DNA of 64,000 nt from Phormidesmis sp. (lineage in GTDB: Bacteria > Cyanobacteriota > Cyanobacteriia > Leptolyngbyales > Leptolyngbyaceae), in NCBI GenBank assembly GCA_965248535.1, contig CBDFJR010000005.1, positions 779,546 to 843,545 of the forward strand, in the 5' to 3' direction. The notes beneath the pieces were generated by a model that made no database searches, was not told the origin of the DNA, and saw only the letters and a list, made by a program, of their open reading frames with translations. The translations under genes and the position numbers were made by a program. Numbering within the stretch: position 1 is the stretch's first letter; each line of letters starts with the position of its first letter. Positions 1,528-20,766 of this stretch are shown one piece after another.

Positions 1528-1833
1528 GATCGTGATCTCCCTTAATCTACAGTTCGTTGATCGGAATTTAGTACTTATCCTCTGACTGTTGATCCTAGCG
1601 GGAGAACGCCCAAAAAACAAGTAGAAAGTCCTTATTTTTGGTCGGGAAAGTGGGGATTAAAAAAAGGCGCGTTGATCGAGGTTCTAAACCGTGAATTTTA
1701 CAGGCTGAATTCTGGATTTTGAATAACCTTCCTAAAGGAGTTGCGCGATCGCTGATAAATTCAGTCTAGTAGTCAGAGAGCTTGTGGGCAAACCCCTGCT
1801 GTTGCTGATCGTCGCCCTACCCAAGGAACCTAA

Positions 1834-3759: not shown

Positions 3760-3900
3760 GGAGATAATCAATTCTGTTGGTTAGTGATATCGATTTTGGG
3801 CACGACAATGCTATGCCCATATACCAAAAGCTATTACACATAGCCGATTTAGCTCTGATAGAATGCTATTGTTCATACCGTTGTCTACAGGAATTCAATA

Positions 3901-4698
3901 ATGGCTCGAAGACGTGTTTGGATTTTTCTCGCTGCGATTCTAGCTACGTTCTCGATCGCAACTAGCTGCGATTTTAGAAAATCTGATTCTAGCGTTACTC
4001 CATCTCAAACAAATTTGATTGTTTCGGCTGCTGTCAGCCTTAAAGATGCCCTAGACGAAATCAAGCGATCGTATCAGCAAAAAGCCTCTACAACCAGCCT
4101 GACCTATAATCTGGGCGCATCGGGCGCATTGATGCAGCAGATTCAAAACGGGGCCCCGGCTGATGTCTTTATTTCGGCAGCAAAGAAGCAAATGGACATT
4201 CTAGAGAAGGGGGGAGAGTTGCTGCCCAACACCCGCCGCGATTTGGTCAAAAATCAGTTGGTTTTGATTGTGCCTAAGGGATCGCAAAAAGCGACGAGTT
4301 TCGCCAGTTTAAGCGATGGGGCGATCCAGCGAGTGGCGATCGGAGAGCCGCGCAGCGTGCCAGCCGGACAGTATGCCGAGCAGGTTTTGCAGAAGCTCAA
4401 GATCTACGACGCATTAAAACCTAAATTTGTTTATGCCAATACAGTCCGGCAAGTGTTAGCAGCCGTCGAAAGCGGCAGCGCCGATGCAGGAATCGTCTAT
4501 CTGACGGACGCAAATTCGTCTCAGCAGGTCACGGTAGCGGCGATCGCGGCTGAAACCGATCATGCCCCGATCGTGTACCCGATCGCGGTGCTCAAAAACA
4601 GCAAAAATCCGCAGGCGGCCAAAGAATTTGTGCAATTTTTAGAGAGCGATTCAGGAAAGTCGATATTTAAAAAGTATGGGTTTATTGTTCCTAATTAA
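3901..4698 (+). CDS. modA: Molybdate ABC transporter substrate-binding protein
   Basis: Lipoprotein leader (ATSC), SAAVSLKDAL, GASGALMQQIQNGAPADVFISA, VPAGQYA motifs. Confidence 0.95.
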   Translation: MARRRVWIFLAAILATFSIATSCDFRKSDSSVTPSQTNLIVSAAVSLKDALDEIKRSYQQKASTTSLTYNLGASGALMQQIQNGAPADVFISAAKKQMDILEKGGELLPNTRRDLVKNQLVLIVPKGSQKATSFASLSDGAIQRVAIGEPRSVPAGQYAEQVLQKLKIYDALKPKFVYANTVRQVLAAVESGSADAGIVYLTDANSSQQVTVAAIAAETDHAPIVYPIAVLKNSKNPQAAKEFVQFLESDSGKSIFKKYGFIVPN

Positions 4699-4710
4699 AG
4701 TCCCGCAATA

Positions 4711-6519
4711 ATGCCCTCTGATCTATCTCCATTCTGGATCTCGCTCAAGACGGCTGCGGTTTCAACGGTGGTCACCTTTGTTATAGGCATTGCTGTAGCC
4801 TATTGGATGCTCAACTATCGCGGCAAAGGCAAAATCGTTTTAGAAGGACTTCTGATTTCGCCGTTGATTCTTCCGCCGACCGTCGTTGGATTCATTTTAC
4901 TATTACTATTGGGTAAAAATGGCGTAATCGGAAAGCTGCTGATTCCGCTTAACACTAGCGTTGTGTTTAGCTGGTCTGGAGCGGTCATTGCAGCGATCGT
5001 CGTCTCATTCCCCTTAATGTATCGCACCGCATTAGGCGCATTTGAACAAATTGATGCTAATTTTTTGCATGTTGCTCGCACCTTGGGCGCATCAGAATGG
5101 ACGGTTTTTCGGCGCATTCTTCTGCCCTTATCGCTTCCGGGCATTCTTGCCGGAACTCTGCTAACGTTTGCGCGGGCCTTGGGAGAATTTGGGGCAACGC
5201 TGATGCTGGCAGGCAACATTCCTGGTGAAACGCAGACGATGCCGATGGCGATCTATTTTGCGGTCGAAGCGAGTGCGACGGGTGAAGCCACTTTTTGGAC
5301 GATCGTGATTCTCTGCCTCTCGCTGTCGGGGCTTTTTGCCGTCAATGTTTATCAACACTCCAGACCACGATCGCGAATAAAGAGCCACAATCGGGCTATT
5401 TTCGCGTCCCTTTCTGCCGCTTCACCCGACTTATCTGCTGCCTCATCTGCCCTCTGGGTCACCCTTCAAAAGCCGCTTTCTGACTTTGATCTCACCGTGT
5501 CTTTTAGCGCCAATCAAGCCCCGATCGGTGTTTTGGGCGGCTCAGGAGCAGGCAAAACGATGCTGTTGCGCTGCATTGCCGGAGTCGAGACCCCCACACA
5601 GGGGCAAATCGTGCTCAATGGGCGGGTGTTGTTCGACTCAAAACGCGGCATTAATCTGCCGAGCCGCGATCGTCGAGTCGGGTTTGTGGTGCAAAACTAT
5701 GCCCTGTTTCCGCACATGACCATAGCGCAAAATATTGCCTTTGGGTTACCAAAATCGCTCGACGCAGGGCAGCAAGTTCACCAGCAGTTAGCCGCCCTAC
5801 ACCTGCAAGGATTGAGCGATCGCTATCCCCATCAACTGTCAGGCGGGCAACAGCAGCGAGTTGCCTTAGCTAGAGCGTTAGCCAGTCAGCCAGAGGCTTT
5901 GCTGCTAGACGAACCGTTTTCAGCCCTCGACACATGTTTGCGAAGTCAGATAGAGCAGCAGATGATCACCCGATTAGCCACCTATCCAGGGGTGACACTG
6001 CTGGTGACTCACAATTTAGAAGAAGTCTACCGGGTCTGCCCAAATTTGCTGGTGCTCGATCGGGGGCAAGCCGTCGCCCAAGGAGCGAAACACTTGATCT
6101 TTGATCGTCCCGAAACCTATACCGTGGCGCAACTGACGGGATGCAAAAATTTTGCCCGTGCGATCGCCATTTCTGCCACCCAAGTAGAGGCGATCGAGTG
6201 GGGAATTCGACTCACGATCGCGGCCCCGATTCCTCAATCACTCGCTTATATTGGCATTCGTGCCCATCAAATCACGTTTCTAGACCCCGCCACCCGCTTT
6301 GATCGAGGCCCTAATCACTTTGACTGCTGGCTAGTCAAAACGAGCGAAACGCCGCATCGCATGACCGTGTTTCTCAAATTCAATGCGCCGCCAACTCATG
6401 CAGAAGATTATCACCTACAAGCAGAAGTCTTTAAAGAAGCCTGGCTGGTTGTAGAGCAGCGATCGCTGCCGTGGTCTGTCAAATTAGACCGATCGCGACT
6501 GATTTTGATGACCGCTTAA
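4711..6519 (+). CDS. modBC: Fused molybdate ABC permease/ATPase ModBC
   Basis: N-terminal permease (LILPPTVVG, FARALGEFGAT), then ABC domain (GGSGAGKT, LSGGQQQRVALARAL, LLLDEPF). Confidence 0.93.
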   Translation: MPSDLSPFWISLKTAAVSTVVTFVIGIAVAYWMLNYRGKGKIVLEGLLISPLILPPTVVGFILLLLLGKNGVIGKLLIPLNTSVVFSWSGAVIAAIVVSFPLMYRTALGAFEQIDANFLHVARTLGASEWTVFRRILLPLSLPGILAGTLLTFARALGEFGATLMLAGNIPGETQTMPMAIYFAVEASATGEATFWTIVILCLSLSGLFAVNVYQHSRPRSRIKSHNRAIFASLSAASPDLSAASSALWVTLQKPLSDFDLTVSFSANQAPIGVLGGSGAGKTMLLRCIAGVETPTQGQIVLNGRVLFDSKRGINLPSRDRRVGFVVQNYALFPHMTIAQNIAFGLPKSLDAGQQVHQQLAALHLQGLSDRYPHQLSGGQQQRVALARALASQPEALLLDEPFSALDTCLRSQIEQQMITRLATYPGVTLLVTHNLEEVYRVCPNLLVLDRGQAVAQGAKHLIFDRPETYTVAQLTGCKNFARAIAISATQVEAIEWGIRLTIAAPIPQSLAYIGIRAHQITFLDPATRFDRGPNHFDCWLVKTSETPHRMTVFLKFNAPPTHAEDYHLQAEVFKEAWLVVEQRSLPWSVKLDRSRLILMTA

Positions 6520-6543
6520 AACCTCAATGTCTTTTATAGGGGT

Positions 6544-9000
6544 TTATCTGATACGAACTCTTTGAGAAATTTGAGTCCTTAGCTTAATCTGGTTGTACAA
6601 ATCGACTTCAGGATTTGAGTGACTGATAGACACAACTAATGCATATCTTTGCATATCGATTTCTCCTTGCTTCGCCCATTTTCGGGCACAACTGAGAACA
6701 AGATACATAGGCTGATCGAATCCTTTAGCTTGAGGAGAGATCTTAATTTTCCCTTGTTGGAGACATCCTTTTTTCCTCAAGTTGCTTCCGGGGAAAAGAT
6801 CTACAGAAATTCCTTTACCAGGATGCATCTTCCTCAATTCCTCTAAAGAGATTTCTGTAAACTCCTCTGTTGGAGCCTCTTTGCTAGCCTTAACAAAAGC
6901 ATTAATAATGCTCTCTTTATCAATATTTTTGAAAAGGTTGAATTCCATCGTGATTCCAAGGTAGGAGTCTCCTCGTGTTGGACGAGTGGGCGGATCAAAC
7001 GAAAGTGTAATTGATAATGTTCGAGTACCCTTGGTCTTCAGATATTCATTTGGAAGCGGGGGAATCTCAAATATCTGGAAGCTTCCCACAGGAATTTGTA
7101 CATCGTCTTCCAGAAGGACTACATAATTTTCAGCAGAGTATTTCGCTCGGAATAAGTCGGGCTGACCATATCCATAGATTTGTAACTGCTTCTGTAATTG
7201 CTTCTTGTCTTTGTCATTTTTTGCCTGGAAAACACGAGGAATTTCATTAGGCAAATTAGCTGAGTTTATAATTAATGCTCTAACCAAGTTTGAGGTTGCA
7301 TTTGGGAACTGAGTGAAGAGCTGGGCTGCCATATTAGCCACACGGGGAGCTGCAAAACTAGTCCCGCAATATGCACGAAACATTGATTTTGCATTATCTT
7401 TGGCAAGTGTCAGAATCGAAGCACCTGGTTCATTCGTGATTACACGGCTTCCATCAACAACTAAATCACCACCAAAATCCACAAGGTCAGGTTTAATCAT
7501 GCCATCGACACCAAATCCGCTCCTTGTAAACGGAGAAGGATATCCCTGAACCCGTGCAACTACACTTCTTTTGGCATCCTCAGTGTACTGAAGACTGCCA
7601 GACCCCAGCGAAAGTGAGCCAACTGTGAGAGCAATTGCCGAAGTAGCTGGTTCAATAATTCGTGCTTCTTCATTGAGCAAATAGTTTGGATAGTCGGTTC
7701 GCAACTGCTCCCCTGAACCTGCTTCGTAAGGCAAGTTACCTGCGGAAATAACGAATACCAAGTTCTTATGCTGGAATTCATAGGCAATTTCATCAATTTT
7801 TGCAGCAAGACGAAACTGCTTTTGCCCATCTCTAAACGCTAATCGAGGGTCTCCCAGAGAAATATTGATGACCTTGCAGTTTCCATAATTTTGCGTGAAA
7901 TATTGAATCGCATCATCCAATTGATTCTCTAGCAATGAATCTGGGTCGTACTCATTATTATGATCAGTAACACGAGCCGAGAAAAGCCAAGCTGTTGGTT
8001 GAAATAATCGATTTTTGACGCTTTGACTGATATCTCCATAGATTGCGATTCCCGATACGCCTGTGCCGTGACCACCTGTTTTCTCATCTCCATCATCGGA
8101 ACCTCCTGTAATAAATTCTCTAGCTGAATCTGGGAAAATCTCCGCTTCTCCCAGAGCAGGAGCAATCAGAGGATGTCCTTGGCGTACCCCGGAATCAATG
8201 ACTAGAATTCCACAGTTTTGCTCAGGAGGAGGATTAACTTCTGGCAAATCAGACAGTGGAATGTTGTACTCAGCAGGAGTCTCGAAGTTGGGTTTGGCTC
8301 TGCGGTCAATCTCCTTGACGAATTCCTCTTCTAGTAAGAGGTTGAGAACTTCTTGCACAATCTTAATCCTGGCTATGCAGAGGTATTCTCCTACGTAGCG
8401 ATCGCTAATCCTCATGGCAGAATTATCTGACCAATTTCTCAAGACCTGATCCAGGTCATCCAGGTACTTATTCATTTCAGCCCTGTCGCCCGTGTGCCAT
8501 AACTCTAAGTCAAGTGCAGCAAGCTCACTCGTCTGGATGGGTTCTAGTTCTAGTAGGCATCCAATTCGATCCGAAGGTTCTAGTGGCACCAACCCTTCAA
8601 TTGCATCTAAGTAACCGTATTCATATTCAGAGTCACTGATGCCACTATAGGCTTTTAAACGTGATCGGAATTGAGTCAGTTCTTTATCCGAAGTGAAAAC
8701 AACAATGGCTTTATTCGCCTTTGGTTCTTTGGCAAGTAGCGTTAATCCGAGTGGTGAGAGCGCACTCTCTTGCAACGTGCCGTCCGAACTCAGCTTAATT
8801 TTGAAGATGAGTTTTGGGTTTAGGTGAAACGGTGAAGTTTTTTGCTTGGAGCGTTGAGTCAATCCTGAAACCTGATCTAGCAGTTGTTGACCATGACTAC
8901 CGCGATCACTTCTGCGAGAGCCAAAGCCGCCACCACCTCTGCTACGTCGTGGTAGCTCGATACTGGTTCTCGGCAACTCTAGGTGCTCAAACTGACTCAC
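6544..9000 (-). CDS. ietS: S8 subtilase-family serine protease, IetS-like
   Basis: Catalytic triad motifs VIDSGV (Asp), GHGTGVSG (His), GTSFAAP (Ser); overlaps the upstream AAA ATPase by 14 bp. Confidence 0.82.
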   Translation of the reverse strand: MSQFEHLELPRTSIELPRRSRGGGGFGSRRSDRGSHGQQLLDQVSGLTQRSKQKTSPFHLNPKLIFKIKLSSDGTLQESALSPLGLTLLAKEPKANKAIVVFTSDKELTQFRSRLKAYSGISDSEYEYGYLDAIEGLVPLEPSDRIGCLLELEPIQTSELAALDLELWHTGDRAEMNKYLDDLDQVLRNWSDNSAMRISDRYVGEYLCIARIKIVQEVLNLLLEEEFVKEIDRRAKPNFETPAEYNIPLSDLPEVNPPPEQNCGILVIDSGVRQGHPLIAPALGEAEIFPDSAREFITGGSDDGDEKTGGHGTGVSGIAIYGDISQSVKNRLFQPTAWLFSARVTDHNNEYDPDSLLENQLDDAIQYFTQNYGNCKVINISLGDPRLAFRDGQKQFRLAAKIDEIAYEFQHKNLVFVISAGNLPYEAGSGEQLRTDYPNYLLNEEARIIEPATSAIALTVGSLSLGSGSLQYTEDAKRSVVARVQGYPSPFTRSGFGVDGMIKPDLVDFGGDLVVDGSRVITNEPGASILTLAKDNAKSMFRAYCGTSFAAPRVANMAAQLFTQFPNATSNLVRALIINSANLPNEIPRVFQAKNDKDKKQLQKQLQIYGYGQPDLFRAKYSAENYVVLLEDDVQIPVGSFQIFEIPPLPNEYLKTKGTRTLSITLSFDPPTRPTRGDSYLGITMEFNLFKNIDKESIINAFVKASKEAPTEEFTEISLEELRKMHPGKGISVDLFPGSNLRKKGCLQQGKIKISPQAKGFDQPMYLVLSCARKWAKQGEIDMQRYALVVSISHSNPEVDLYNQIKLRTQISQRVRIR

Positions 9001-12742: not shown

Positions 12743-12796
12743 TTCCCGGATTCACGATCGCATCCAACTACTTCTGTCAAACGAGGTTTATGTTAA

Positions 12797-12884
12797 GCAT
12801 AACGTTGCCCATCACCCGCCGCAGATCAACTTTGTAGTATACCGATCAACTCTCGGCGGTCGGTGTGCAGGGGCGTTGTTATGC
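12797..12884 (-). mobile_element. Integron attC site B (88 bp)
   Basis: Top (minus) strand GCATAACAACGCCCCTGCACACCGACCGCCG...GCGGCGGGTGATGGGCAACGTTATGC: complementary R''/R' boxes (GCATAAC/GTTATGC), imperfect L arms with extrahelical bases, 67 bp downstream of a minus-strand gene. Confidence 0.8.
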
Positions 12885-12951
12885 AGCGATAAATAACCAT
12901 GATGTTTCTCCATTTCATAAAACCTGGAAGAGATTCATAACCATCGGCGCA

Positions 12952-13284
12952 TTATGATAAAGCAAGCAGCGATAAGTTCTCATCTTCATAAAATAATTTG
13001 ATCGCGTCAAAATTCTGACGCAGCAAATTTTCAACCTGTGATGTCGAACAATTTCCAAGACGAAGCCAAATAACTTTCGGTGGATTTCCAGATACTAAGC
13101 TCAGGTCGTGCATATCCGCATCTTTCGAGACAATCATCAAATTCTTGTCTTTTGCATAATCCCAAACGATTGGATCGATTGTTGCCTTCATGCCCACGTC
13201 TCGAACGTGAAGCGAATTTGGGAAAAGATCACTTAAACGATTTGGCAACTTGGGCGACAAGTTTTCATCAAAAAGCAATTTCAT
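12952..13284 (-). CDS. DUF5615-family PIN-like toxin (VapC-type)
   Basis: LLFDENLS, IVSKDADM, PPKVIWLRLGN motifs; 4-bp overlap with the upstream DUF433 gene. Confidence 0.88.
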   Translation of the reverse strand: MKLLFDENLSPKLPNRLSDLFPNSLHVRDVGMKATIDPIVWDYAKDKNLMIVSKDADMHDLSLVSGNPPKVIWLRLGNCSTSQVENLLRQNFDAIKLFYEDENLSLLALS

Positions 13285-13511
13285 GCGGATAGTGGAGCAC
13301 TCATAAACCGACGCTCACGGTCGGCAGCATAAGCAATACAGGCTTTCAAATCTTCTCGCGTTAGATCAGGAAAATCGTCGAGAATTTCTGCTTCGGTCAT
13401 CTCGGAAGCTAGGTACTCAAGCACTTCATAAACCGTAATTCGCAAGCCACGTACACAAGGCTTACCACCGCGCTTATCGGGTTCGATCGTGATGTAATTT
13501 CGGTAGTTCAT
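13281..13511 (-). CDS. DUF433-family antitoxin
   Basis: ITIEPDKRGGKPCVRGLRITV...EILDDFPDLTREDLKACIAYAA is the DUF433 signature. Confidence 0.92.
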   Translation of the reverse strand: MNYRNYITIEPDKRGGKPCVRGLRITVYEVLEYLASEMTEAEILDDFPDLTREDLKACIAYAADRERRFMSAPLSA

Positions 13512-13570
13512 ATTAAAAGCATCTGAATGTTAATCAAATTGTAGCTTTGCAGTGGCGACTGATTCGCCCT

Positions 13571-13956
13571 TCACTTTAGATGATTTAGTTTCCACTCTAC
13601 CCACTCTGTATAAGTTTTAACCTTTGCGGGCGCATCCAAAACCTCAAAGTGCGACTTCGGATCAGTCAGCAAGTCCAAAACCAATTCCTCATACTCCTCT
13701 CGTGTAATCTCAAAAGGTTTCCACGAGCAACCTCCACTCATCCCAGCATCATATTGAGCTTTTCCGTCTGGAAAAGCCCATTAGGGAAAAACTCATTGGG
13801 CACACCCTGCTTTAACAAGTAACTTAATACATGAAAAGGTGGAATAAATTTATTTAACACGTAGGGCATCGCAAGTAGCAAATCCTTCAGCGTCCCTCTC
13901 GTCCAAATCCCGCCCGCGCAATGCATCGCATAAAGTTTAAAACGCAACTCTCTCAC
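13571..13956 (-). pseudogene. Frameshifted ~128-aa hypothetical cassette gene
   Basis: Frame 1 MRELRFKLYAMHCAGG...PNG (GTG 13956, GAGG upstream). A second frame AFPDGKAQYDAGMSGGCSWKPFEITREEYEELVLDLLTDPK...NHLK* is open to 13571. Span 386 bp = 3n-1. Confidence 0.6.
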
Positions 13957-14012
13957 CGAGCGATCGCCTCACCATTTACCTTCAAAAAACTTCCCAAACT
14001 ACAATCGAAGCG

Positions 14013-14798
14013 GCATAACGACTAAGATAAGCGGCGGCAGATAACCTTTGCATCCCCACAAAGATCTCGCGCCCGTCCGCTTCATCGACTTGTGTACGCC
14101 CAGCATGGGTGTGAACTAATGGGGTGAAAGTCCCCTGTCGGAGAACCAACGTCCAAATGATCCCAAAAGATCCGAGTGACGACAACGACTAGCTTAAGGT
14201 AAGGGCGTTTCCGCGAGGAAGGGTCTGAAGGAAGCCAGCGGCAAATCTGCGAGCTGACGGACAGAAACGTCATAGAAGGCTGAGATTCCTGTGGCAAGTG
14301 AGCACAACATCATGAAGCCTTTTGGTTCAGGGAACACAGTAAATGACGCAGTTGTGCAGAGACAGTTCACGTTCTTATCTGGGGAGATCTGCTCAAAGGG
14401 CGGTCTGAGGGTCTACGGGAGTCTGATTGAGGTCTAGCGGGAAACGGCTAGGGAGCCACGGAACCCTAAGGACATTCAGGCAGCGTGAGTCATGGCAACA
14501 GGACTCATGATTGAGCAGAAGTCAGCAGAGGTCATAGTAGCCAAACACTCACCGTAATGGGTGAGACAGGGTGAAGGGCTGAACCTTAGAAAGCAGGGAG
14601 GAGTTGCAAAGCTCGACTGGGCGATGAACCCGAACGGGGGAGCTATTTTGTCGGCGCTTAACTGCACAACCAGCCCTGGATATTCAGTTCTATTGAACTG
14701 GCTTGTCTAAAACTTTTCTGGGGACGCGCCCCGTGCGGAGCCGCACGCGGGGTGCCGTGGGGACTGGGGGAGAAAATCCCCTGGTTACCCGATTAGCC
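14013..14798 (-). mobile_element. Integron attC site A (86 bp once the intron is removed), interrupted by a group II intron
   Basis: Joining 14013-14093 to 14794-14798 gives top strand GGCTA^ACAAGTCGATGAAGCGGAC...GCCGCCGCTTATCTTAGTCGTTATGC with paired GAT(G)AAGCGG/CCGCTTATC L boxes. Confidence 0.85.
14094..14793 (+). ncRNA. Group IIC (attC-targeting) intron, ORF-less / internally deleted, 700 nt
   Basis: 5' end GTACGCCCAGCATGG...GGGGTGAAAGTCCCC; class C landmarks TCTGAAGGAAGC, AGTAAATGA, TTATCTGGGGAGATCT, AGAAGTCAGCAGAGGTCATAGTA; EBS1 ACAA (14304-14307) complementary to exon TTGT; DV GCGCCCCGTGCGGAGCCGCACGCGGGGTGC (14726-14755, CGC triad); DVI ending TACCCGAT; only ~130 nt of domain IV, no RT ORF. 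Confidence 0.93.
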
Positions 14799-14821
14799 TG
14801 CGTTTGCACTCACGCCGAGAA

Positions 14822-15187
14822 CTATAACTCATCAATCGTTACCAACCCACCTTCTGTGAACTGGATTACAAGCTCATGCTCGTCTAGCAAAGCAGTTCCA
14901 ATTAGAGGTCGCCGTCCTGTAGCAAACACACGAGCTTCTCGCTCCTCTCCGTTCCAAAGAATGATCGCTTTGTGCACTGGCAATATAACTCGGCTGTTAT
15001 CTGCCAAATTCGCACGCATATCATGTTTGAAAGGAAGATTCAGTAAAGCGACTGCTTCTGGCGGGAGACAAAGCTCATCTGTAAATCCTGTGTCTACTAC
15101 AAACTCAACTGGGAAGTCAGCGCGATTGGGAATCCGAAACGGGATGGTAATAATGGCGTGTCCGTCAGTAACAATACCCGAAATCAC
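14822..15187 (-). CDS. Clan AA (retropepsin-like) aspartic protease, AF_0612-like
   Basis: VVDTGF catalytic motif and C-terminal RRPLIGTALL; 121 aa; GTG start overlaps the upstream TGA by 4 bp. Confidence 0.85.
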   Translation of the reverse strand: MISGIVTDGHAIITIPFRIPNRADFPVEFVVDTGFTDELCLPPEAVALLNLPFKHDMRANLADNSRVILPVHKAIILWNGEEREARVFATGRRPLIGTALLDEHELVIQFTEGGLVTIDEL

Positions 15188-15459
15188 TTAACCACACGCT
15201 CCATGACACCACCACTAAAAGCCGCACCAACGTTGTACCCGATTTTGATCCCGAAGAGTCGGGCATTGGGGTGTTTCTCGCTCAAGTAGTCAGCGGCGCG
15301 TAAGCTATTTTCATCAACCTTGTAATCACCTGTCTCAATGTCAATGATGACGATCTTCCCGATGTTTTCTTCCACTTCCACCTCTTGGCGAATCCTGTCT
15401 TCGTATAGTTGCTCTGCACGTTGAGCAACTTCTTCGCGACTTAAAAGGATGGCTTGCAT
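15184..15459 (-). CDS. Small acidic protein translationally coupled to the aspartic protease (91 aa)
   Basis: MQAILLSREEVAQRAEQLYEDRIRQEVEVEENIGKIVIIDIETGDYKVDE...RLFGIKIG; start reassigned to ATG 15459 because the longer ORF overlaps the next gene. Confidence 0.75.
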   Translation of the reverse strand: MQAILLSREEVAQRAEQLYEDRIRQEVEVEENIGKIVIIDIETGDYKVDENSLRAADYLSEKHPNARLFGIKIGYNVGAAFSGGVMERVVK

Positions 15460-15538
15460 ATTCTGGCTCCCGATCGCTGTGTGGCTGTTGAAGAACCCCT
15501 TCATTATATCTTGTAAACGAAGCCTACAATGCCGACCA

Positions 15539-16075
15539 TTATTGCTTGATCCGAGCATACCAGCCGTAGGTTGTTCTCTGAGCCTTAGCACCTGTCCCTG
15601 AAAATCCTTCAAAAGAACCAGCCAAAGTGTATACCTTACCTGAACCCTCTCCATTTGAGAACATGTAGCCTGTATGAAATTGGAGAGTAGACGGATCTTT
15701 AGAATCAATGATTCTTATGAACGTGATCTTCTGGGCATCTTCATCCCAAAAACCATTGATCGGATTACCCATGACCGATCCTTGCACATTCCCGTTCACA
15801 TCAATAGCCGAAATTTTTAGCGTCCCTTCATATCCATTCCCATTAAATTGCCAGTCTCCAATTAGCAGGGATACTGAAGCATTGCTGGAATTGCTGGAAT
15901 TGCTAGAAGTTATAGGTAGCTGAGTGGATGGTGTAGGCGAAGCAGACTTATTGGAAGCAGAAAGTTTATCCCAGTTCGCAAACAGAGCTACAGCCACTGT
16001 GCCAATTAAACCAACCACAGCCAAAATAATCTGAGTGCGAGAATCTAACCCTTTGTTTTCATTATTATCTGTCAT
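15539..16075 (-). CDS. Hypothetical membrane-anchored protein (one TM, Ser/Asn linker, beta-rich domain)
   Basis: TM IILAVVGLIGTVAVALFA, SSNSSNSSN linker encoded by 9-bp tandem repeats, beta-strand-rich C-terminus with Trp/Gly turns. Confidence 0.7.
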   Translation of the reverse strand: MTDNNENKGLDSRTQIILAVVGLIGTVAVALFANWDKLSASNKSASPTPSTQLPITSSNSSNSSNASVSLLIGDWQFNGNGYEGTLKISAIDVNGNVQGSVMGNPINGFWDEDAQKITFIRIIDSKDPSTLQFHTGYMFSNGEGSGKVYTLAGSFEGFSGTGAKAQRTTYGWYARIKQ

Positions 16076-16159
16076 AGTGGTATACCACTGAAACAAACTG
16101 ATAGCGTCTTGTTACAAGTTGCACTACGATCGCTTGGCTCTGACCTCTGAACATTCCCA

Positions 16160-18019
16160 TCAAGGACAGGGAGTAGCTTTTGGAGGCGAATAAAGCGGCA
16201 CCCAGTTATCATTCGTAGCTACTACTGCGTTATATCGGCGTGTGTATAATCCGCCATCCTTGATTACAACAAGACGTGGTCTAAACCCCGTAGCACCAGA
16301 CCGAGTCATAATTTCAATTTGTGTGCTTCCTTTTAGCTCAGGGTCTGAATCTAATCTATTCCATGCTCCCCATGTCGAACCTGGTATCGCACTCACTTTC
16401 TGGCGTTGATAAATGGAAGTTACACTGTTTGAGTCCTTAGCCAAAAGATAAACATCCATTTGTCCGTTAGGATTAATTCCGGCTGCAATATCAAGCAGGG
16501 TCAATGTGGGTAGCCCTTCACTGAAAGATACCCAACCAGACCATTGATTGGAACTTGGACTCGAAATCTCCCAACTTGTTTTCACGTCGTTACCTGCTAT
16601 TAGAAAAATTTGCTGAAAACCACCAGTACTTGATGCAGCGATCGCACGAGAACCAGAGAATGTTCCAAGAAGTTTCTCTTGTTCCCAATTTGCATTCCAC
16701 GTATTCAGCTTTCGACGTGTGCGAATTTGTCCATCTGTATGAACAGTATAGAGCTGCATTGCTGTTGAGCCTGCGGACTGCGCTTCAATGTCAACTACGC
16801 TTCTCGACATCGCACTATCTGGAAACCACGTCTGCCAATCAGCCCAAACCCCAGGACTAGTCTCAAATTTATTCCAAATCTGAGAAGCCTTTGAGGTTTG
16901 ATTTTCTGCTTGAGCAAATATCCAACGTCTTCCATCAAGGGTTGTTGCAGAGGTAAGACGACCAAATAATAGGAGAGATGCGAACAATTTGGAATCACGG
17001 AAGTCGCGCCATTGATCAGCGGAGCGATAACCATCTGTACTATCAAGACTTGTCCAAGCTACTGAATTGAAAAAGACATCACCACTGGTTACCCCAAGCA
17101 ATTGTCCATTCCCATGTGTAGCTGTGAATCCTTTGGCGCGAACTGGTGCAAAAGCCCATGCATTTGTTCCGATTTCTCGGTTTGCGTTTTCTTCAGTCCA
17201 TGTGGAGGCATTACCGCTACCACCGCCACCCACCGTGGACATAATAGCTGGATTTGAAAAAGCATTGACGATTGTTGGTCCTCCAGATGCACCGCCTTCA
17301 TATGAGCAATCACTAAGAACTACGCCAAGTCCCTCTTGACGCTGCCCACTAGCTGTTGAGCAAACTGCATCCTTTCTCAACTTACAAGTGTTGTAATGTC
17401 CTAATCCGTTACTTCCAAGAAAATCACCCGAATATCCAAAAACAGTTACGTCAATTCCTTCAGAAGGAATGGGATTAGGGGTTGAATTAGAAGCAATCGT
17501 AGGCCAGTTTAGAAAGGTCGCTGGAAAATCAGGAACACCTGAGTTACTCGGCGGATTCCCCCGACTGTATGTACTTGGATCAAGTTCGACGATAGTCCAA
17601 TCCGCTCCAGGAACATAGGTACCACCGTCATTAATCTTGTTATCGTGACCAGTGCCAAAGACTATACGCTTTCCTCGGATTGAGGGACGGTAAGAATAGT
17701 TGGTGGCATTGGGGGTACCTACGAAAGCCGGTCGAAAAATGATATCGCCAGGGTTGACATTACGAGCAGCAAAACAATGCCTTGCTGTGATGATGTGGTT
17801 GGGTGCAAGATGAGTTGCGGTACAGTGTCCTCCACCTGGAAGGTCAAGTAGTCCAATTGCCCAAAGGTTTCTATTGGTTCTGAAGAATGCGTCGTCCATG
17901 CCAACCCGTGGATCACTTGAGCCATACCATGTCGCAGAAGCAGTGCTAGAGACAAAGAGCGAACTGAGGATGAAGGCAAAGAGCAATACCTTAATTCGGT
18001 CATACTTCTTGGGCGACAT
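16160..18019 (-). CDS. Secreted trypsin-like (S1) serine protease fused to a C-terminal Trp-rich beta-propeller lectin-like domain
   Basis: Signal peptide (LLFAFILSSLFVSSTASA); HCTATHLAPNHIITARHC (His), ADWTIVEL (Asp), GGASGGP (Ser); C-terminal ~45-50 aa repeats each ending in W-x-x-W (GVWADW, NANWEQ, NQWSGW, STWGAW). Confidence 0.82.
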   Translation of the reverse strand: MSPKKYDRIKVLLFAFILSSLFVSSTASATWYGSSDPRVGMDDAFFRTNRNLWAIGLLDLPGGGHCTATHLAPNHIITARHCFAARNVNPGDIIFRPAFVGTPNATNYSYRPSIRGKRIVFGTGHDNKINDGGTYVPGADWTIVELDPSTYSRGNPPSNSGVPDFPATFLNWPTIASNSTPNPIPSEGIDVTVFGYSGDFLGSNGLGHYNTCKLRKDAVCSTASGQRQEGLGVVLSDCSYEGGASGGPTIVNAFSNPAIMSTVGGGGSGNASTWTEENANREIGTNAWAFAPVRAKGFTATHGNGQLLGVTSGDVFFNSVAWTSLDSTDGYRSADQWRDFRDSKLFASLLLFGRLTSATTLDGRRWIFAQAENQTSKASQIWNKFETSPGVWADWQTWFPDSAMSRSVVDIEAQSAGSTAMQLYTVHTDGQIRTRRKLNTWNANWEQEKLLGTFSGSRAIAASSTGGFQQIFLIAGNDVKTSWEISSPSSNQWSGWVSFSEGLPTLTLLDIAAGINPNGQMDVYLLAKDSNSVTSIYQRQKVSAIPGSTWGAWNRLDSDPELKGSTQIEIMTRSGATGFRPRLVVIKDGGLYTRRYNAVVATNDNWVPLYSPPKATPCP

Positions 18020-18090
18020 AGTTCCCTATTTCCTTGCTGAACACCAACAGACAGTCTTTCATCTACCGCCCCAACCCAGATGACGAAGCA

Positions 18091-18179
18091 GGCTAACGAT
18101 TGAGTTGAACCGCACCAAATCAATCAAGCAACACCAACTTTAGTTGGTAGTGCGGTTAACCTTACGACTATTTGTAGCG
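18091..18179 (-). mobile_element. attC-like site C with an intact 3' half and a degenerate R'' half
   Basis: Minus strand ends GCGGTTCAACTCAATCGTTAGCC (compare classical ...GCTTAACTCAAGCGTTAG); arms GTTGAACCGCAC (18104-18115)/GTGCGGTTAAC (18150-18160); no clean TAAC at the R'' end. Confidence 0.5.
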
Positions 18180-18600
18180 TGTCGGTTCCAACGAAATGTT
18201 CTACGGAACTGGGTGGATGTAGTGTTCCCAATGGGTAACATTTATATCCAGTTCTCGTGGAACTATTGATTATACGGAAAATTTCCGTATATCTCCCCGA
18301 TTTAGGCAGATACCCGGAAACTTTCTGCATATCTCCCCTCACTTTTCATTAGGTATTCTGATTCTATGAGATCATATTCATTATTTCGTTGAGGAATTAT
18401 AAACCTTTAGGGACGATCGCGCCCCTCTCTTTCCCCAAAACCCGATCGCTCCTCCCAAAAAATTCAGCATTCCAAAAAACAAAAAACTCTAGTACAATAC
18501 ACCGCAGTGATGGAGTTGTGCCCCGAAGTCTGATGGACAAGATCAGAACTCCGAGGACTTCCATCCCTAAGTTAGTGCACTGATAACTCAGGAGGCGTTC

Positions 18601-18737: not shown

Positions 18738-19109
18738 ATGGCAGTTAGGACGATCGTTCCTAGCTCGATTTCGTTTACGGTTGAGTTAGGTTGCTCAATC
18801 GAAAAGCGTTATCGAGTCAGTGTCACTTTGGATTTACAAGAGCGTTATCTCTTCATGCCGTCTGGCATTCTCGTGAATGTTAGCGACAGCATTGAAGACT
18901 TCACCTCGCAACTGAGTGAGATTGCTTCTAATCAACTGGCATTTCTGAAGTGGGATGGCACGAGTGATTTGACGACAGAGTATCAAGTTGTTCGAGTGTT
19001 GCCCGGTTATCAAGTTGGACGTTCTCTCGTGAAGTTCAACATTGTTCTGGGTGAGGGTTCACTGATTCAAGTAGAGGAGTTGCACAACGAAACCAACATT
19101 CAACTCTAG
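18738..19109 (+). CDS. Hypothetical protein (123 aa)
   Basis: ATG with GAGGA RBS; no recognisable motif. Confidence 0.55.
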   Translation: MAVRTIVPSSISFTVELGCSIEKRYRVSVTLDLQERYLFMPSGILVNVSDSIEDFTSQLSEIASNQLAFLKWDGTSDLTTEYQVVRVLPGYQVGRSLVKFNIVLGEGSLIQVEELHNETNIQL

Positions 19110-19356: not shown

Positions 19357-20766
19357 GTGCAGAAGTTGGGCTTGATCAAATCGCTACTTTCATCTCTAGG
19401 TAGAATGGACGCGCAAAAAACATTACGACAAAAAGGCAGGAAACCCCTGCTGCGGCTAACTAGCCTGCTAATCTTTGGAGGCATCTTTCTCGCCTTACCC
19501 GCCCGATCGCAGATCATTCCTCAAGCCACCGCCGCCGCCAGAGACACTCAGCGCCAACAGCAGGTCAACCAAACGCGCCCCGATCGCTACGATCTCAGCC
19601 GCCACCCCGTCAACGATGCCAACGAACGCTATTGGCGAAACTTGCTCTGGTCAACCGCCATCACAGAACCGCAGCTTGCGTCAGTCGATGGAGCAATCGC
19701 GCAAATTCTCTCGCTGACGGCTCGCCGGGGTCTCTCTAACGCCCAAGCCCGAACGCTGGAAATGGCGATGCAGGTTGGCACTCAGCTTTATCTCAGCAAC
19801 CCAACTCAATATGACGGCGTAAAGCAACAGTTTTTGCAAACCATCGATCGTAGCCCTGATGCAGAATGGGTGGCGATGGCGGTGTCGGCACTAGTGCAAG
19901 GAGGTGCCGAGACTGAACTGCGATCGCAGTGGCTGACCCTGATTCAGCAACGGTTTCCTCAATGGCGCGACGATCCGGCTCTGTTGACAACGCTGCGGAC
20001 GATCGAGAGTCTCGATCGCCCCCATCTCACTCCACCCTTAAAAGATCTGTTGACTTGGACGATTGCCCCTAACCAGCTTCAGATGTATGTGATTTGTCGC
20101 CCCGATCGTGGACTTCTCTGTCAAGCGATTTTAAAAGACCGTCGAGGGCAGTTTGTTCGTCAAGACGGTGAATTGTGGTCAGTGCCCTTGCTGACCCGAT
20201 CGCTGCATGGTTTATCGAGCGTCTTTACGCGGGGGCAAACTCCGCAGGGAGTCTACCGCATTGAGGGCAGCGTTCCGCAGCCGGATACGGAGTTTTTTAG
20301 AGCCTATGGCACCTTTCCTCTGGTCAAGCTATTTACGCCCTTTGAGCCGGGGGTAAAAGCCTTTTTGCCCAACCATCCGGGACAAATTGCTGGGCTGTCT
20401 GCCTATCAGTCGCTGCTGCCACCATCTTGGCGCAACGAGTTTGCAGTCCAGCAGAGCTATTGGGCAGGCAAAGCGGGTCGAGGTCTATTTAGAGTGCACG
20501 GCAGCGGCGAAGATCCTGGATTTTTTACCAACAATAGTCGCTACCCTGACAGTGCAGGCTGGAACCCGACGATCGGTTGTCTTTCTGCCCTAGAACTCTA
20601 TGACCAAACGGGACGACTTCAGCAAGCCGACATGCCCAAGATTTTGAGCGCTCTAACCGCCGCAGGTGGACGGGATTTTTCGGGCTACTTGATGGTGGTT
20701 GAAGTTCCCGATCGTGCCAACGCTCCGATCTCAAAGCAAGAGATTGAGTCCGTGCTGAGAGAATAA
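19357..20766 (+). CDS. Conserved cyanobacterial exported protein with a possible L,D-transpeptidase (YkuD)-like catalytic motif
   Basis: Signal/TM region (LLIFGGIFLALPARS), GQTPQGVYRI, and RVHGSG...PTIGCL His/Cys motif; start codon uncertain. Confidence 0.55.
   Translation: MQKLGLIKSLLSSLGRMDAQKTLRQKGRKPLLRLTSLLIFGGIFLALPARSQIIPQATAAARDTQRQQQVNQTRPDRYDLSRHPVNDANERYWRNLLWSTAITEPQLASVDGAIAQILSLTARRGLSNAQARTLEMAMQVGTQLYLSNPTQYDGVKQQFLQTIDRSPDAEWVAMAVSALVQGGAETELRSQWLTLIQQRFPQWRDDPALLTTLRTIESLDRPHLTPPLKDLLTWTIAPNQLQMYVICRPDRGLLCQAILKDRRGQFVRQDGELWSVPLLTRSLHGLSSVFTRGQTPQGVYRIEGSVPQPDTEFFRAYGTFPLVKLFTPFEPGVKAFLPNHPGQIAGLSAYQSLLPPSWRNEFAVQQSYWAGKAGRGLFRVHGSGEDPGFFTNNSRYPDSAGWNPTIGCLSALELYDQTGRLQQADMPKILSALTAAGGRDFSGYLMVVEVPDRANAPISKQEIESVLRE

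What the first reader, a model, noticed from the sequence alone, without database searches (positions are those of the whole stretch)
14019..18096. Boundary complementarity defines an unusually large four-gene cassette
Seen: the crossover at 18097-18088 reads GTTAGCCTGC on the minus strand and is the perfect 10-bp complement of the R'' side of attC A (GCAGGCTA|AC). No attC-like sequence lies between the four genes. Established: a cassette's R'' is complementary to the R' bases at its own 5' end, and most cassettes carry a single short ORF. Inference: protease-lectin, membrane protein and the small-protein/aspartic-protease pair move as one 3.4-kb unit, large for a cassette.
Basis: partly seen in the sequence, partly recalled or inferred. 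Interest (0 to 1): 0.7.

Follow-up and report, generated by a model that had tools for sequence, protein, structure and literature searches.

The report
Large four-gene integron cassette, confirmed
A 3.4-kb block of four genes in a Phormidesmis-like cyanobacterium is a real integron gene cassette, because the same block, 99.9% identical, sits at another position in an integrase-bearing integron; but it is a composite built on a widespread two-gene cassette, and here it is probably frozen, since the integrase gene is deleted and an intron splits its recombination site.

Summary
GCAGGCTAAC occurs once in the window (18088-18097). Its reverse complement is the R'' of the attC after the fourth gene, split by an ORF-less group II intron (14094-14793). 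No attC lies between the genes. A covariance model built from six local attCs scores at most 8.3 bits inside the block, against 74-84 bits for the real sites, and the intergenic gaps do not fold.

The decisive evidence is metagenome contig L007. It carries an integron-integrase gene and holds the same block (5 substitutions and one 9-bp indel in 3.3 kb) as cassette 4. The junction lies exactly at G|TTAGCCTGC, behind a different attC and before a different downstream cassette.

- The upstream site in the window is the attI-like site, not an attC.
- intI has been cleanly deleted (18409|18415).
- GTTAGCCTGC is a core shared by several cassettes, not a private signature.
- The cassette is a mosaic. 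The small-protein/aspartic-protease pair plus this attC is a module spread across cyanobacteria, and it carries variable cargo upstream.

One point is unexplained: identity with L007 collapses at the R''/intron boundary, and the attC bodies are not orthologous.

Verdict: a new, large member of a known kind.

The parts
   Evidence: It is 98% identical to L007 713-956, which is the first G|TT site after intI there. It matches the attC model only weakly (14-24 bits). It has no canonical R'', and the bulged base is on the wrong arm (reading).
18282..18409 (-). Integron 5' region: 40-bp tandem repeats (2 copies here, 4 in L007) and a TATAAT-containing stretch, ending at the intI deletion scar 18409|18415
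   Evidence: Homology to L007 561-688 and to L165 108-229. L165 1192-1891 resumes at window 18415, so the whole intI ORF is missing. A repeat-number variant is seen in sequencing runs.
18088..18096 (-). Cassette 5' end, TTAGCCTGC (the R' remainder that belongs to this cassette)
   Evidence: Identity with L007 starts exactly here.
16160..18019 (-). g619: secreted trypsin-like serine protease fused to a PLL/PHL-type beta-propeller lectin-like C-terminal domain
   Evidence: Pfam Trypsin_2, E 9.6e-5, below the curated cutoff. Foldseek matches Photorhabdus PLL lectins at E 3.5e-9, but on a low-confidence model. Only 6 homologues were found.
15539..16075 (-). g185 (178 aa from ATG 16075): N-terminal transmembrane helix, Ser/Asn-rich linker, and a C-terminal 8-stranded beta-barrel
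   Evidence: AlphaFold2 pLDDT is above 90 for residues 70-178. The top Foldseek hits are weak and avidin-like (E 1e-3). There is no Pfam, NCBIfam or PADLOC hit.
15184..15459 (-). g92 (91 aa): conserved partner of the aspartic protease, with its own conserved upstream region carrying a -10-like box
   Evidence: It lies immediately upstream of the g121 homologue in 66 of 70 cyanobacterial loci. Nucleotide homology of the module begins 0-50 nt upstream of its ATG.
14822..15187 (-). g121: clan AA (retropepsin-like) aspartic protease; its start overlaps the g92 stop (GTGA)
   Evidence: NCBIfam TIGR03698, 84 bits against a cutoff of 57. A DTG motif is present in the sequence.
14794..14803 (-). 5' part of the attC A R'' (GCAGGCTA, preceded by AC), on the cassette side of the intron
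   Evidence: The same R'' is intact in L014, L099, L102, L114 and L141.
14094..14793 (+). ORF-less group II intron inserted at TTGT|TAGCC of the attC bottom strand, opposite in orientation to the cassette genes
   Evidence: Rfam RF02001 at 127.8 bits, RF01998 at 63.7 bits, and RF00029 (domains V-VI) at 43.5 bits, the last ending exactly at 14793. Insertion site and orientation are as described for group IIC-attC introns (PMC7923331, PMC3001079).
14019..14093 (-). attC A body (AC of R'', L'', loop, L', up to the G of R' at 14019)
   Evidence: Covariance model score 73.7 bits. It folds as a canonical hairpin. It is 84-87% identical to the attCs that follow g92-g121 in Rhizonema and Stigonema contigs.
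12803..14018 (-). Next cassette: broken ORFs 13571-13956 plus a DUF433/DUF5615 (PIN-like) pair at 12952-13511, ending in attC0 (12797-12884)
   Evidence: Pfam DUF433 E 6e-25 and DUF5615 E 3e-35. attC0 scores 84.4 bits. Its R'' GCTGCATAAC matches the 5' end GTTATGCCGC at 9 of 10 positions.

Best explanation
The segment 18096-14019 (minus strand) is one genuine integron gene cassette. It is the first cassette behind the attI-like site of a chromosomal integron in a Leptolyngbyales (Phormidesmis-like) cyanobacterium.

Shown:
- Its 5' end is an IntI-type G|TT crossover.
- It ends in a canonical attC.
- No attC lies inside it.
- A 99.9% identical copy occupies position 4 of an intI-bearing integron, with different neighbours on both sides.

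Inferred:
- The unit was captured as a whole by IntI recombination at G|TT.
- It is transcribed from the integron promoter region, and probably also from a second promoter in front of g92.

The cassette is a composite. The 3' module (promoter-like region, g92, g121, attC with R'' GCAGGCTAAC) is a cassette tail spread horizontally among cyanobacteria. It occupies the position that classical toxin-antitoxin pairs hold in neighbouring cassettes, so it is probably an addiction-like or selfish pair. The 5' cargo varies between relatives. Here it is a secreted serine protease fused to a propeller lectin, plus a membrane-anchored beta-barrel protein that also accompanies a different (metzincin) protease-lectin in relatives.

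In this genome the system is frozen. intI has been cleanly deleted, and a group IIC-attC-type ORF-less intron separates R'' from the rest of the attC.
For: - Boundaries: the 10-mer is unique in the window. Junction alignments put the crossover at exactly CG|TTAGCCTGC in two contexts, and the downstream cassette differs.
- Identity profile: 5 substitutions and one 9-bp indel over 18096-14794.
- attC family: the six sites fold canonically. The model finds 17 sites in 11 loci. 88.5% of cells are paired against 30-46% in slid controls, 16 of 22 pairs carry compensatory changes, and 0 of 500 shuffles reach the observed value.
- No internal attC.
- Integron identity: the L007 N-terminal IntI fragment scores 230 bits on TIGR02249 over the N-terminal half of the profile, below the 265-bit whole-protein cut-off because the contig ends there. 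Full-length relatives score 454 and 477 bits against that cutoff.
- intI deletion.
- Intron.
- Module structure: g92-g121 are paired in 66 of 70 loci, none of which has g185 or g619. The orthologous attC directly follows g121 in L099, L102 and L114. The same frame (5' end and R'') carries other cargo in L141. g185h-g92h-g121h follow a metzincin-lectin gene in L014.
- Population data: the cassette contig ends inside attI in two runs, and an intI-bearing variant is present in one of them (X1).
Against: - The near-identity with L007 stops within 8 nt of the R''/intron boundary. The intron is only about 84% identical, and the attC body is non-orthologous (62% identical, against 84-87% to the Rhizonema/Stigonema attCs). 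A simple IntI move of the whole cassette would carry the attC along.
- No excised circle or empty site was observed. The runs available are assembled contigs, which drop rare forms.
- No intact intI was seen next to this cassette. L007 is cut inside intI, and in L165 the intI ORF stops after 194 aa.
- The functions of all four proteins are inferred. The g619 model has low confidence.
- The toxin-antitoxin-like role of g92-g121 has no experimental or database support.
Confidence: 0.85

Rival explanations
1. Fused cassettes. The block arose when two or three once-separate cassettes (g619; g185; g92-g121 with the attC) lost the attC sites between them. It is a single cassette only secondarily. 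This concerns origin and is compatible with the main explanation.
For: - Each module occurs without the others: a g619 fragment or homologues alone, g185 alone between transposases, and g92-g121 alone in 66 loci.
- L099 keeps a 3'-half attC remnant between an upstream gene and g92.
- A decay series of the attC after g121 is seen in other genomes.
- L007 c5 shows a degenerate attC before a DUF433 gene.
Against: - No attC remnant is detectable in either gap.
- The 5' end is a perfect 10-bp complement of the R'' of the g92-g121 attC, and the same frame recurs in L141 with other cargo. A fusion would normally keep the upstream cassette's 5' end. This argument is weak, because only a few core types circulate in this family.
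- g185 is linked to g92-g121 at 75% nucleotide identity in L012-14, so that junction is old.
Confidence: 0.45
2. The block never moved as a unit. The two contexts differ only because other cassettes were inserted at attI in the L007 lineage and the downstream part was exchanged by recombination at intron copies. The four-gene block is a static, vertically inherited part of the array.
For: - Insertion of c1-c3 at attI would by itself produce the upstream difference.
- The break of identity on the 3' side lies at the intron, not at an IntI crossover.
- The attI region is 98% identical between the two sequences.
Against: - The block is 99.9% identical, whereas the attI-proximal region is 90-98% identical and the intron 84%. 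This favours recent exchange of the block itself.
- In the L007 array the block follows an ordinary attC (c3), with the junction exactly at G|TT.
- Sequencing runs show attI joined to more than one first cassette in the same sample.
Confidence: 0.2
3. Chance inverted repeat. The 10-bp complementarity is coincidental, and the region is ordinary chromosomal DNA next to hairpin-forming repeats.
For: Nothing in the data favours this, beyond the shortness of the repeat.
Against: - The 10-mer is unique, with an expected count of 0.12.
- The flanking attCs score 74-84 bits and show covariation.
- An integron integrase is adjacent in L007.
- The crossover is confirmed by comparison of the two contexts.
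Confidence: 0.01

Closest known systems
Gene cassettes of sedentary chromosomal integrons (e.g. the Vibrio superintegron), including multi-gene and toxin-antitoxin cassettes
   Same: - Bounded by a G|TT crossover and ends in an attC hairpin, with R''/R', an unpaired spacer and bulged bases.
- Sits in an array behind intI/attI.
- Neighbouring cassettes carry classical TA pairs (ParE, PIN, DUF433/DUF5615).
- The cassette's R'' is complementary to its own 5' end.
   Different: - Four genes and 3.4 kb, against the usual single ORF of under 1 kb and the '~2 kb largest known' of PMC4889954.
- The host is a cyanobacterium.
- Most cassettes in this family combine cargo genes with a two-gene pair just before the attC.
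- The local intI is deleted.
Group IIC-attC introns (S.ma.I2 of Serratia marcescens and relatives)
   Same: - Inserted in the bottom strand of an attC, at R'', after TTGT, in the orientation opposite to the cassette genes, so that the gene is separated from its attC (PMC3001079, PMC7923331).
- A related copy that encodes a reverse transcriptase (TIGR04416, 406 bits) sits in another attC of L007.
   Different: - The window copy has no ORF (700 nt).
- Class C membership of the RNA or of the reverse transcriptase was not tested phylogenetically.
- The host phylum is different.
CALIN (cluster of attC sites lacking an integron integrase; Cury et al. 2016)
   Same: The window holds two attCs within 4 kb and no intI.
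   Different: The attI-like site and the integron 5' region are retained. The loss of intI can be seen as a clean deletion by comparison with L007 and L165, so this is a decapitated integron rather than a dispersed attC cluster.
Fused cassettes of class 1 integrons (two genes sharing one attC after loss of the intervening site; from my own knowledge)
   Same: Several genes of independent origin share one attC.
   Different: No attC remnant is left between the genes here, and the block is much larger, with four genes.
Photorhabdus PLL/PHL seven-bladed propeller lectins
   Same: The C-terminal ~270 residues of g619 superpose on them (Foldseek E 3.5e-9, TM about 0.5 normalised by the target).
   Different: - Sequence identity is 16-20%, and the model confidence is low to moderate.
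- The domain is fused to a trypsin-like protease.
- Sugar binding is untested.

Membership tests
Integron gene cassette | 3' end formed by an attC site: imperfect inverted repeat R''-L''...L'-R' with conserved AAC/GTT, folding as a hairpin | tested here: met
   Spliced attC A folds canonically and scores 73.7 bits on the family model. Across 17 sites, 88.5% of cells are paired and 16 of 22 pairs carry compensatory changes.
Integron gene cassette | 5' boundary at the G|TT crossover of the preceding recombination site | tested here: met
   Alignment of the window against two L007 sites places the switch of homology exactly at CG|TTAGCCTGC.
Integron gene cassette | No further attC inside the unit | tested here: met
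   With filters off, the covariance model gives at most 8.3 bits, in coding sequence. The intergenic gaps fold no better than shuffles.
Integron gene cassette | Same unit found at different positions or in different arrays (mobility as a unit) | tested here: met
   The block is first behind attI in the window and fourth in L007, at 99.9% identity, with different neighbours on both sides. Caveat: the attC body is not co-inherited.
Integron gene cassette | IntI-dependent excision as a circle and re-integration | not testable with these tools
   Only assembled contigs of runs were available, and no circle junction was seen. The test needs an in vivo assay.
Integron (platform) | intI gene of the integron-integrase subfamily next to the array | tested here: not met
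   The window has no IntI (tblastn; Pfam). intI is cleanly deleted at 18409|18415. The feature is met in the homologous array: the L007 N-terminal half scores 230 bits on TIGR02249 (below the 265-bit whole-protein cut-off because the contig ends inside the gene), and full-length relatives score 454 and 477 bits.
Integron (platform) | attI site adjacent to intI, where the first cassette is joined | tested here: inconclusive
   The site at 18097-18207 is defined as attI by position only: it is the first G|TT site 394 bp from the intI start in L007. It also resembles an attC weakly (14-24 bits). IntI binding was not tested.
Group IIC-attC intron | Group II ribozyme domains present and complete | tested here: met
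   RF02001, RF01998 and RF00029 all score above their gathering thresholds. Domains V-VI end at the inferred 3' splice site, 14793.
Group IIC-attC intron | Inserted at R'' of the attC bottom strand after TTGT, opposite in orientation to the cassette genes | tested here: met
   The junction reads GACTTGT|intron|TAGCCTGC on the + strand, and the genes are on the minus strand. Intron-less orthologous sites exist. The definition is taken from PMC7923331.
Group IIC-attC intron | RNA or IEP belongs to the class C attC lineage by phylogeny | not tested
   The window copy has no ORF. The related L007 reverse transcriptase was identified only as a group II RT/maturase (TIGR04416).
Type II toxin-antitoxin pair (for g92-g121) | Two small co-transcribed genes, one toxic and the other neutralising, with a match to a known TA family | tested here: not met
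   The architecture fits: overlapping genes, their own upstream region, a conserved pair in 66 of 70 loci, and horizontal spread. But there is no match to TA or defence families and no literature support. Toxicity is untested.
Clan AA aspartic protease (TIGR03698) | Profile score above the curated cutoff; DTG active-site motif | tested here: met
   g121 scores 84 bits against a cutoff of 57.35. VDTGFT is present in the sequence.
Trypsin-like serine protease (for the g619 N-terminus) | Pfam score above gathering; His/Asp/Ser triad motifs | tested here: inconclusive
   Trypsin_2 scores 23.6 bits against a cutoff of 27.6. TARHC and GASGGP motifs are visible in the sequence. The homologue P0002 carries PF00089.

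The most novel reading that the evidence does not exclude
The same gene block (99.9% identical) is joined, exactly at the intron insertion point in R'', to two different ORF-less introns (84% identical) and to two non-orthologous attC bodies. The window keeps the attC native to the g92-g121 module, whereas L007 carries one of another subfamily. This could be natural evidence that group IIC-attC-type introns re-tool cassettes by exchanging or joining attC sites and gene blocks. Possible routes are recombination between intron copies or homing with co-conversion of the 5' exon, as proposed but never observed in the Leon and Roy model of cassette formation. Together with the recurring frame '5' core, variable cargo, g92-g121, attC', it would suggest a carrier cassette that recruits new cargo.
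Probability: 0.3. Interest if true: 0.7.

Novelty: new member of a known kind. Interest (0 to 1): 0.45.

Why it matters
Integron cassettes are usually described as single promoterless genes of about 0.5-1 kb. Software defaults rest on that picture: the 4-kb clustering threshold was justified by '~2 kb largest known cassettes'. This case documents a 3.4-kb four-gene cassette, with comparative proof of its boundaries, and a 5-kb neighbour in a related array. With the intron, the spacing between recombination sites is 4,078 bp, just above that default threshold, so such arrays could be split or missed.

It also shows in one locus how a cyanobacterial chromosomal integron decays, through a clean deletion of intI, intron invasion of attC and erosion of attC sites.

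The small-protein/retropepsin pair is flagged as a widespread, horizontally moving cassette module of unknown function.

If the intron-linked exchange of attC bodies is real, it bears on the old open question of how cassettes acquire their attC sites.

Tried and rejected
- A crude AAC...GTT pair scan with folding over the whole window was too noisy to use. It was replaced by a covariance model.
- A search for g619 relatives in 185,579 reference genomes found none.
- Exact look-ups of g121 found nothing, and g92 was found only in L007 and in the source genome.
- A metagenome scan for the cassette-specific 3' end GTGAGTGCAAACGCAGGCTAA gave 0 hits.
- Promoter and terminator consensus scans inside the cassette found no more sites than shuffles did. 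The candidate promoter before g92 rests only on conservation.
- PADLOC gave no defence-system match for any of the six proteins tested.
- The AlphaFold2 model of g619 has low confidence (mean pLDDT 52), so only the C-terminal propeller match is used, and with caution.
- The orthologous locus next to the prolyl-oligopeptidase gene in three close relatives has no integron, so it gave no synteny-based insertion history.
- I considered and rejected the idea that L007 is a de Bruijn chimera at the intron. The two introns share no long identical stretch, since mismatches begin 9 nt into the intron.
- I considered a simple crossover between intron copies as the cause of the identity break. It was rejected because no part of the intron is near-identical (63-93% per 100 nt).

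Full report
**What is in the sequence**

All four genes lie on the minus strand:
- g619, 16160-18019
- g185, 15539-16075
- g92, 15184-15459
- g121, 14822-15187

The + strand at 18088-18097 reads GCAGGCTAAC, and this 10-mer occurs once in the 64-kb window. Just past the stop of g121 the + strand reads TTAGCCTGC (14793-14801). Upstream of that lies a 700-nt group II intron on the + strand (14094-14793). Rfam gives RF02001 at 127.8 bits and RF01998 at 63.7 bits. RF00029 (domains V-VI) scores 43.5 bits and ends exactly at 14793. Removing the intron restores ...CGACTTG|TTAGCCTGC, which on the minus strand is an attC beginning with R'' GCAGGCTAAC.

**The flanking sites are real attCs**

I collected six attCs: two from the window and four from contig L007. 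All fold as canonical hairpins, with R''/R' pairing, an unpaired spacer, a long bulged stem and a variable loop. RNAalifold gives a consensus with compensatory changes.

A covariance model built from these six scores 84.4 bits on attC0 (12794-12887) and 73.7 bits on attC A. It finds nothing else above noise in the whole window. Extended to 17 sites from 11 loci:
- 88.5% of cells are paired, against 30-46% when partners are slid.
- 16 of 22 pairs show changes on both sides.
- No shuffle out of 500 reaches the observed value.

**No hidden attC**

With filters off, the best matches inside 14806-18090 are 8.3 bits (14980-15005, inside g121) and 5.3 bits. The copy in L007 gives the same result. Only two gaps could hold a short attC. 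Folded as single-stranded DNA on either strand, they give z-scores of +0.5, +0.9, -0.6 and -0.4, against -2.4 for attC0. g92 and g121 overlap by GTGA.

**The comparative test**

The 619-aa protein has only six relatives in 5.8 billion proteins. One is identical and lies on an ENA metagenome contig of 13.4 kb, L007. L007 begins inside an integron-integrase gene. That gene scores 230 bits on TIGR02249 over the N-terminal half of the profile, below the 265-bit whole-protein cut-off because the contig ends there. Full-length relatives L166 and L167 score 454 and 477 bits, above the cutoff of 265. Behind intI come:
- 40-bp tandem repeats
- a recombination site ending G953|T954
- cassette c1: a QueC-like gene split by an IS, plus an antitoxin/ParE pair
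- cassette c2: a 186-aa repeat protein plus a PIN pair; its R'' is split by a group II intron that encodes a reverse transcriptase
- cassette c3: 357 bp
- cassette c4: the four-gene block
- cassette c5

These are read.

Alignments show that the window site upstream of the block is 98% identical to the first site after intI in L007. Homology switches exactly at CG|TT. In the window, TTAGCCTGC (the block) follows. In L007, TTATGCGGC (c1) follows. The block in L007 follows the unrelated attC of c3, again at CG|TTAGCCTGC. Downstream, the window continues with G|TTATGCCGC and a DUF433/DUF5615 cassette, whereas L007 continues with G|TTAGCCTGC and c5.

From 18096 to 14794 the two copies differ by five substitutions and one 9-bp indel in a Ser/Asn repeat of g185.

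1. *The upstream site is attI-like.* It is attI by position, being the first crossover 394 bp from the intI start in L007. That explains its weak attC score (14-24 bits), its lack of a canonical R'', and its bulge on the wrong arm.

2. *The window has lost intI.* tblastn finds no IntI in the window. Phormidesmis priestleyi contig L165 has the order repeats, intI, then a 123-aa gene. In the window, position 18409 (equivalent to the intI start) abuts 18415 (equivalent to the sequence after intI). The intI ORF in L165 itself stops after 194 aa.

3. *The 10-bp core is shared.* GTTAGCCTGC also begins L007 c5 and two cassettes of L141. Across this family, complementarity between a cassette's own 5' end and its R'' runs from 7 to 11 bp.

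**The cassette is a mosaic**

- A truncated g619 (the C-terminal 406 aa, 85% nucleotide identity) sits in a non-integron context. There, homology ends 9 nt after the stop.
- More distant g619 homologues have other neighbours.
- A g185 homologue occurs alone between transposase genes.
- g185h-g92h-g121h (79, 75 and 67% amino-acid identity) occur together in L012-14. There they follow a different gene, encoding an HExxH metalloprotease fused to beta-propeller repeats. They are followed by an intron-less attC with the same R'' GCAGGCTAAC.
- The g92-g121 pair is conserved in 66 of 70 cyanobacterial loci, none of which has g185 or g619. Identity reaches 93% at the amino-acid level across orders.
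- In Rhizonema (L099, L102) and Stigonema (L114) contigs the pair is followed directly by an intact attC. Its body is 84-87% identical to the window's attC A.
- Other genomes show that attC in stages of decay: 5' half only, collapsed to R''-AC-TTGGTCGTTA, or R'' only.
- L141 has the frame attC-G|TTAGCCTGCTT, a 149-aa gene, g92h, g121h, then GCAGGCTAAC.
- L099 keeps a 3'-half attC remnant between an upstream gene and g92.

So the 3' module (g92, g121 and this attC) is an old, horizontally spread cassette tail. The genes in front of it vary. Whether the cargo arrived by fusion of cassettes or by insertion is not resolved.

**Gene functions (inferred)**

- g619 has a signal-like N-terminus and a weak Trypsin_2 match with recognisable His and Ser motifs. 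Its C-terminal region matches Photorhabdus PLL/PHL propeller lectins, but only on a low-confidence model.
- g185 has a transmembrane helix, a low-complexity linker and a confidently predicted eight-stranded barrel. The barrel's resemblance to avidins is weak.
- g121 is a clan AA aspartic protease (TIGR03698).
- g92 has no family.

Neighbouring cassettes end in classical toxin-antitoxin pairs: ParE, PIN and DUF433/DUF5615. The g92-g121 pair occupies the same position, has overlapping genes and has its own conserved upstream region. An addiction-like role is therefore plausible, but it is unsupported by any database or paper I could find.

**An unexplained feature**

Identity with L007 collapses within 8 nt of the intron's 3' end. 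The introns are only about 84% identical, ranging from 63 to 93% per 100 nt with no near-identical segment. The attC bodies beyond them belong to different subfamilies: 62% identity to each other, while the window's body is 84-87% identical to the native attC of the module.

An IntI move carries the attC with the cassette, so this needs a second process. One possibility is independent intron invasions together with replacement of the attC body, for example homing with co-conversion of the 5' exon. Another is some intron-linked recombination, as in the Leon and Roy model in which introns join genes and attC sites (summarised in PMC7923331 and PMC3001079). A simple crossover inside the intron is excluded by the identity profile.

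Contigs of two sequencing runs add three observations:
- The cassette contig ends inside attI, a branch point, so attI is joined to more than one first cassette in those samples.
- One run carries a version with a diverged g121 5' half, which points to recombination among paralogous tails.
- One contig shows the intron-less junction. This rests on 13 nt only.

**Host and locus**

The adjacent prolyl oligopeptidase is 92-93% identical to those of Leptolyngbyales and Phormidesmis MAGs. Their homology to the window ends about 120 bp after that gene, and they have no integron there.

**Size in context**

Without the intron the cassette is 3,378 bp. With it, the two crossovers are 4,078 bp apart. 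Cury et al. 2016 took about 2 kb as the largest known cassette and 4 kb as the clustering threshold. A 2026 preprint reports that recovery of Vibrio cassettes falls with size, and that a cassette with attCs 4 kb apart was not recovered. Within this cyanobacterial family, large cassettes recur. L012 has a 5.0-kb cassette holding one 1,613-aa helicase gene, and its R'' is also split by an intron.

**Verdict**

This is an unusually large, composite member of a known kind of element. In this genome it is probably immobile. One feature, the exchanged attC body at the intron, is open and worth following.

Noticed in passing
window 18409-18415 (compare L165 229-1192 and L007 1-561): The integron-integrase gene is cleanly deleted, from its start codon to just past its stop. 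The attI-side repeats and the downstream 123-aa gene (18738-19109) remain. In P. priestleyi BC1401 (L165) the intI ORF stops after 194 aa, and in the Phormidesmis MAG L171 only residues 51-172 match.
   Followed up: yes
window 18282-18360; L007 632-790: 40-bp tandem repeats (GGGGAGATAYNNNGAAAGTKTCSGGGTATCTGCCYAAATC) lie between intI and the attI-like site. There are 2 copies in the window and 4 in L007. A copy-number variant is seen in three sequencing runs. They could be integrase-binding or regulatory sites.
   Followed up: partly
window 14794-14810 versus L007 10620-10640, and window 14019-14093 versus L007 11330-11405: Between the two copies of the cassette, identity drops from 99.9% to about 84% exactly at the intron boundary, and the attC bodies are non-orthologous. 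This points to an intron-linked exchange of attC bodies.
   Followed up: partly
L012 about 1727-6729: A single 1,613-aa DEAD/ResIII helicase gene forms a 5.0-kb cassette. Its 5' end GTTATGCCGCC and R'' GGCGGCATA|AC are complementary over 11 bp, and the R'' is split by a related intron.
   Followed up: partly
L095, L100, L103, L106, L111, L112 (just after the g121 homologue): These loci form a graded decay series of the same attC in different cyanobacteria: 5' half only, body collapsed to R''-AC-TTGGTCGTTA, or R'' only. This shows that the small-protein/aspartic-protease pair is often a relic of a former cassette.
   Followed up: partly
window 12803-14018: The second cassette holds a DUF433/DUF5615 (PIN-like) pair at 12952-13511, plus two adjacent ORFs (13738-13956 and 13571-13741). 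The two ORFs look like one broken gene and have no family match.
   Followed up: partly
L007 1020-2340: The QueC-like gene of cassette 1 is interrupted by an IS that carries a DDE_Tnp_1 transposase. The IS is flanked by a repeated GGTTATGAACT, so the cassette grows from about 1.5 kb to 2.7 kb.
   Followed up: no
L014 3-1355: A different secreted protease-lectin precedes the g185-g92-g121 homologues. It has an HExxH metzincin-like domain and propeller repeats with weak CV39L/beta-propeller-lectin matches. This suggests a functional link between g185 and protease-lectin genes of either catalytic class.
   Followed up: partly
window 15039-15223, as seen in run X2: One sequencing run carries the cassette with a diverged 5' half of g121 and 3' end of g92 (22 differences), while the remaining 2.9 kb are identical. 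Depth over g121, the intron and the attCs is 10-50 times that of the cassette body, so these parts are multi-copy in the community.
   Followed up: no
window 34457-35455: This ORF has OrfB_IS605 / Cas12f-like TNB domains (a TnpB-type gene). It is unrelated to the integron.
   Followed up: no
window 19453-19461: GTTAGCCGC, adjacent to GCAGGCTAG, lies inside the 5' end of ORF 19357-20766. It resembles the cassette cores but scores only 6.3 bits on the attC model, so it is probably a chance match.
   Followed up: partly
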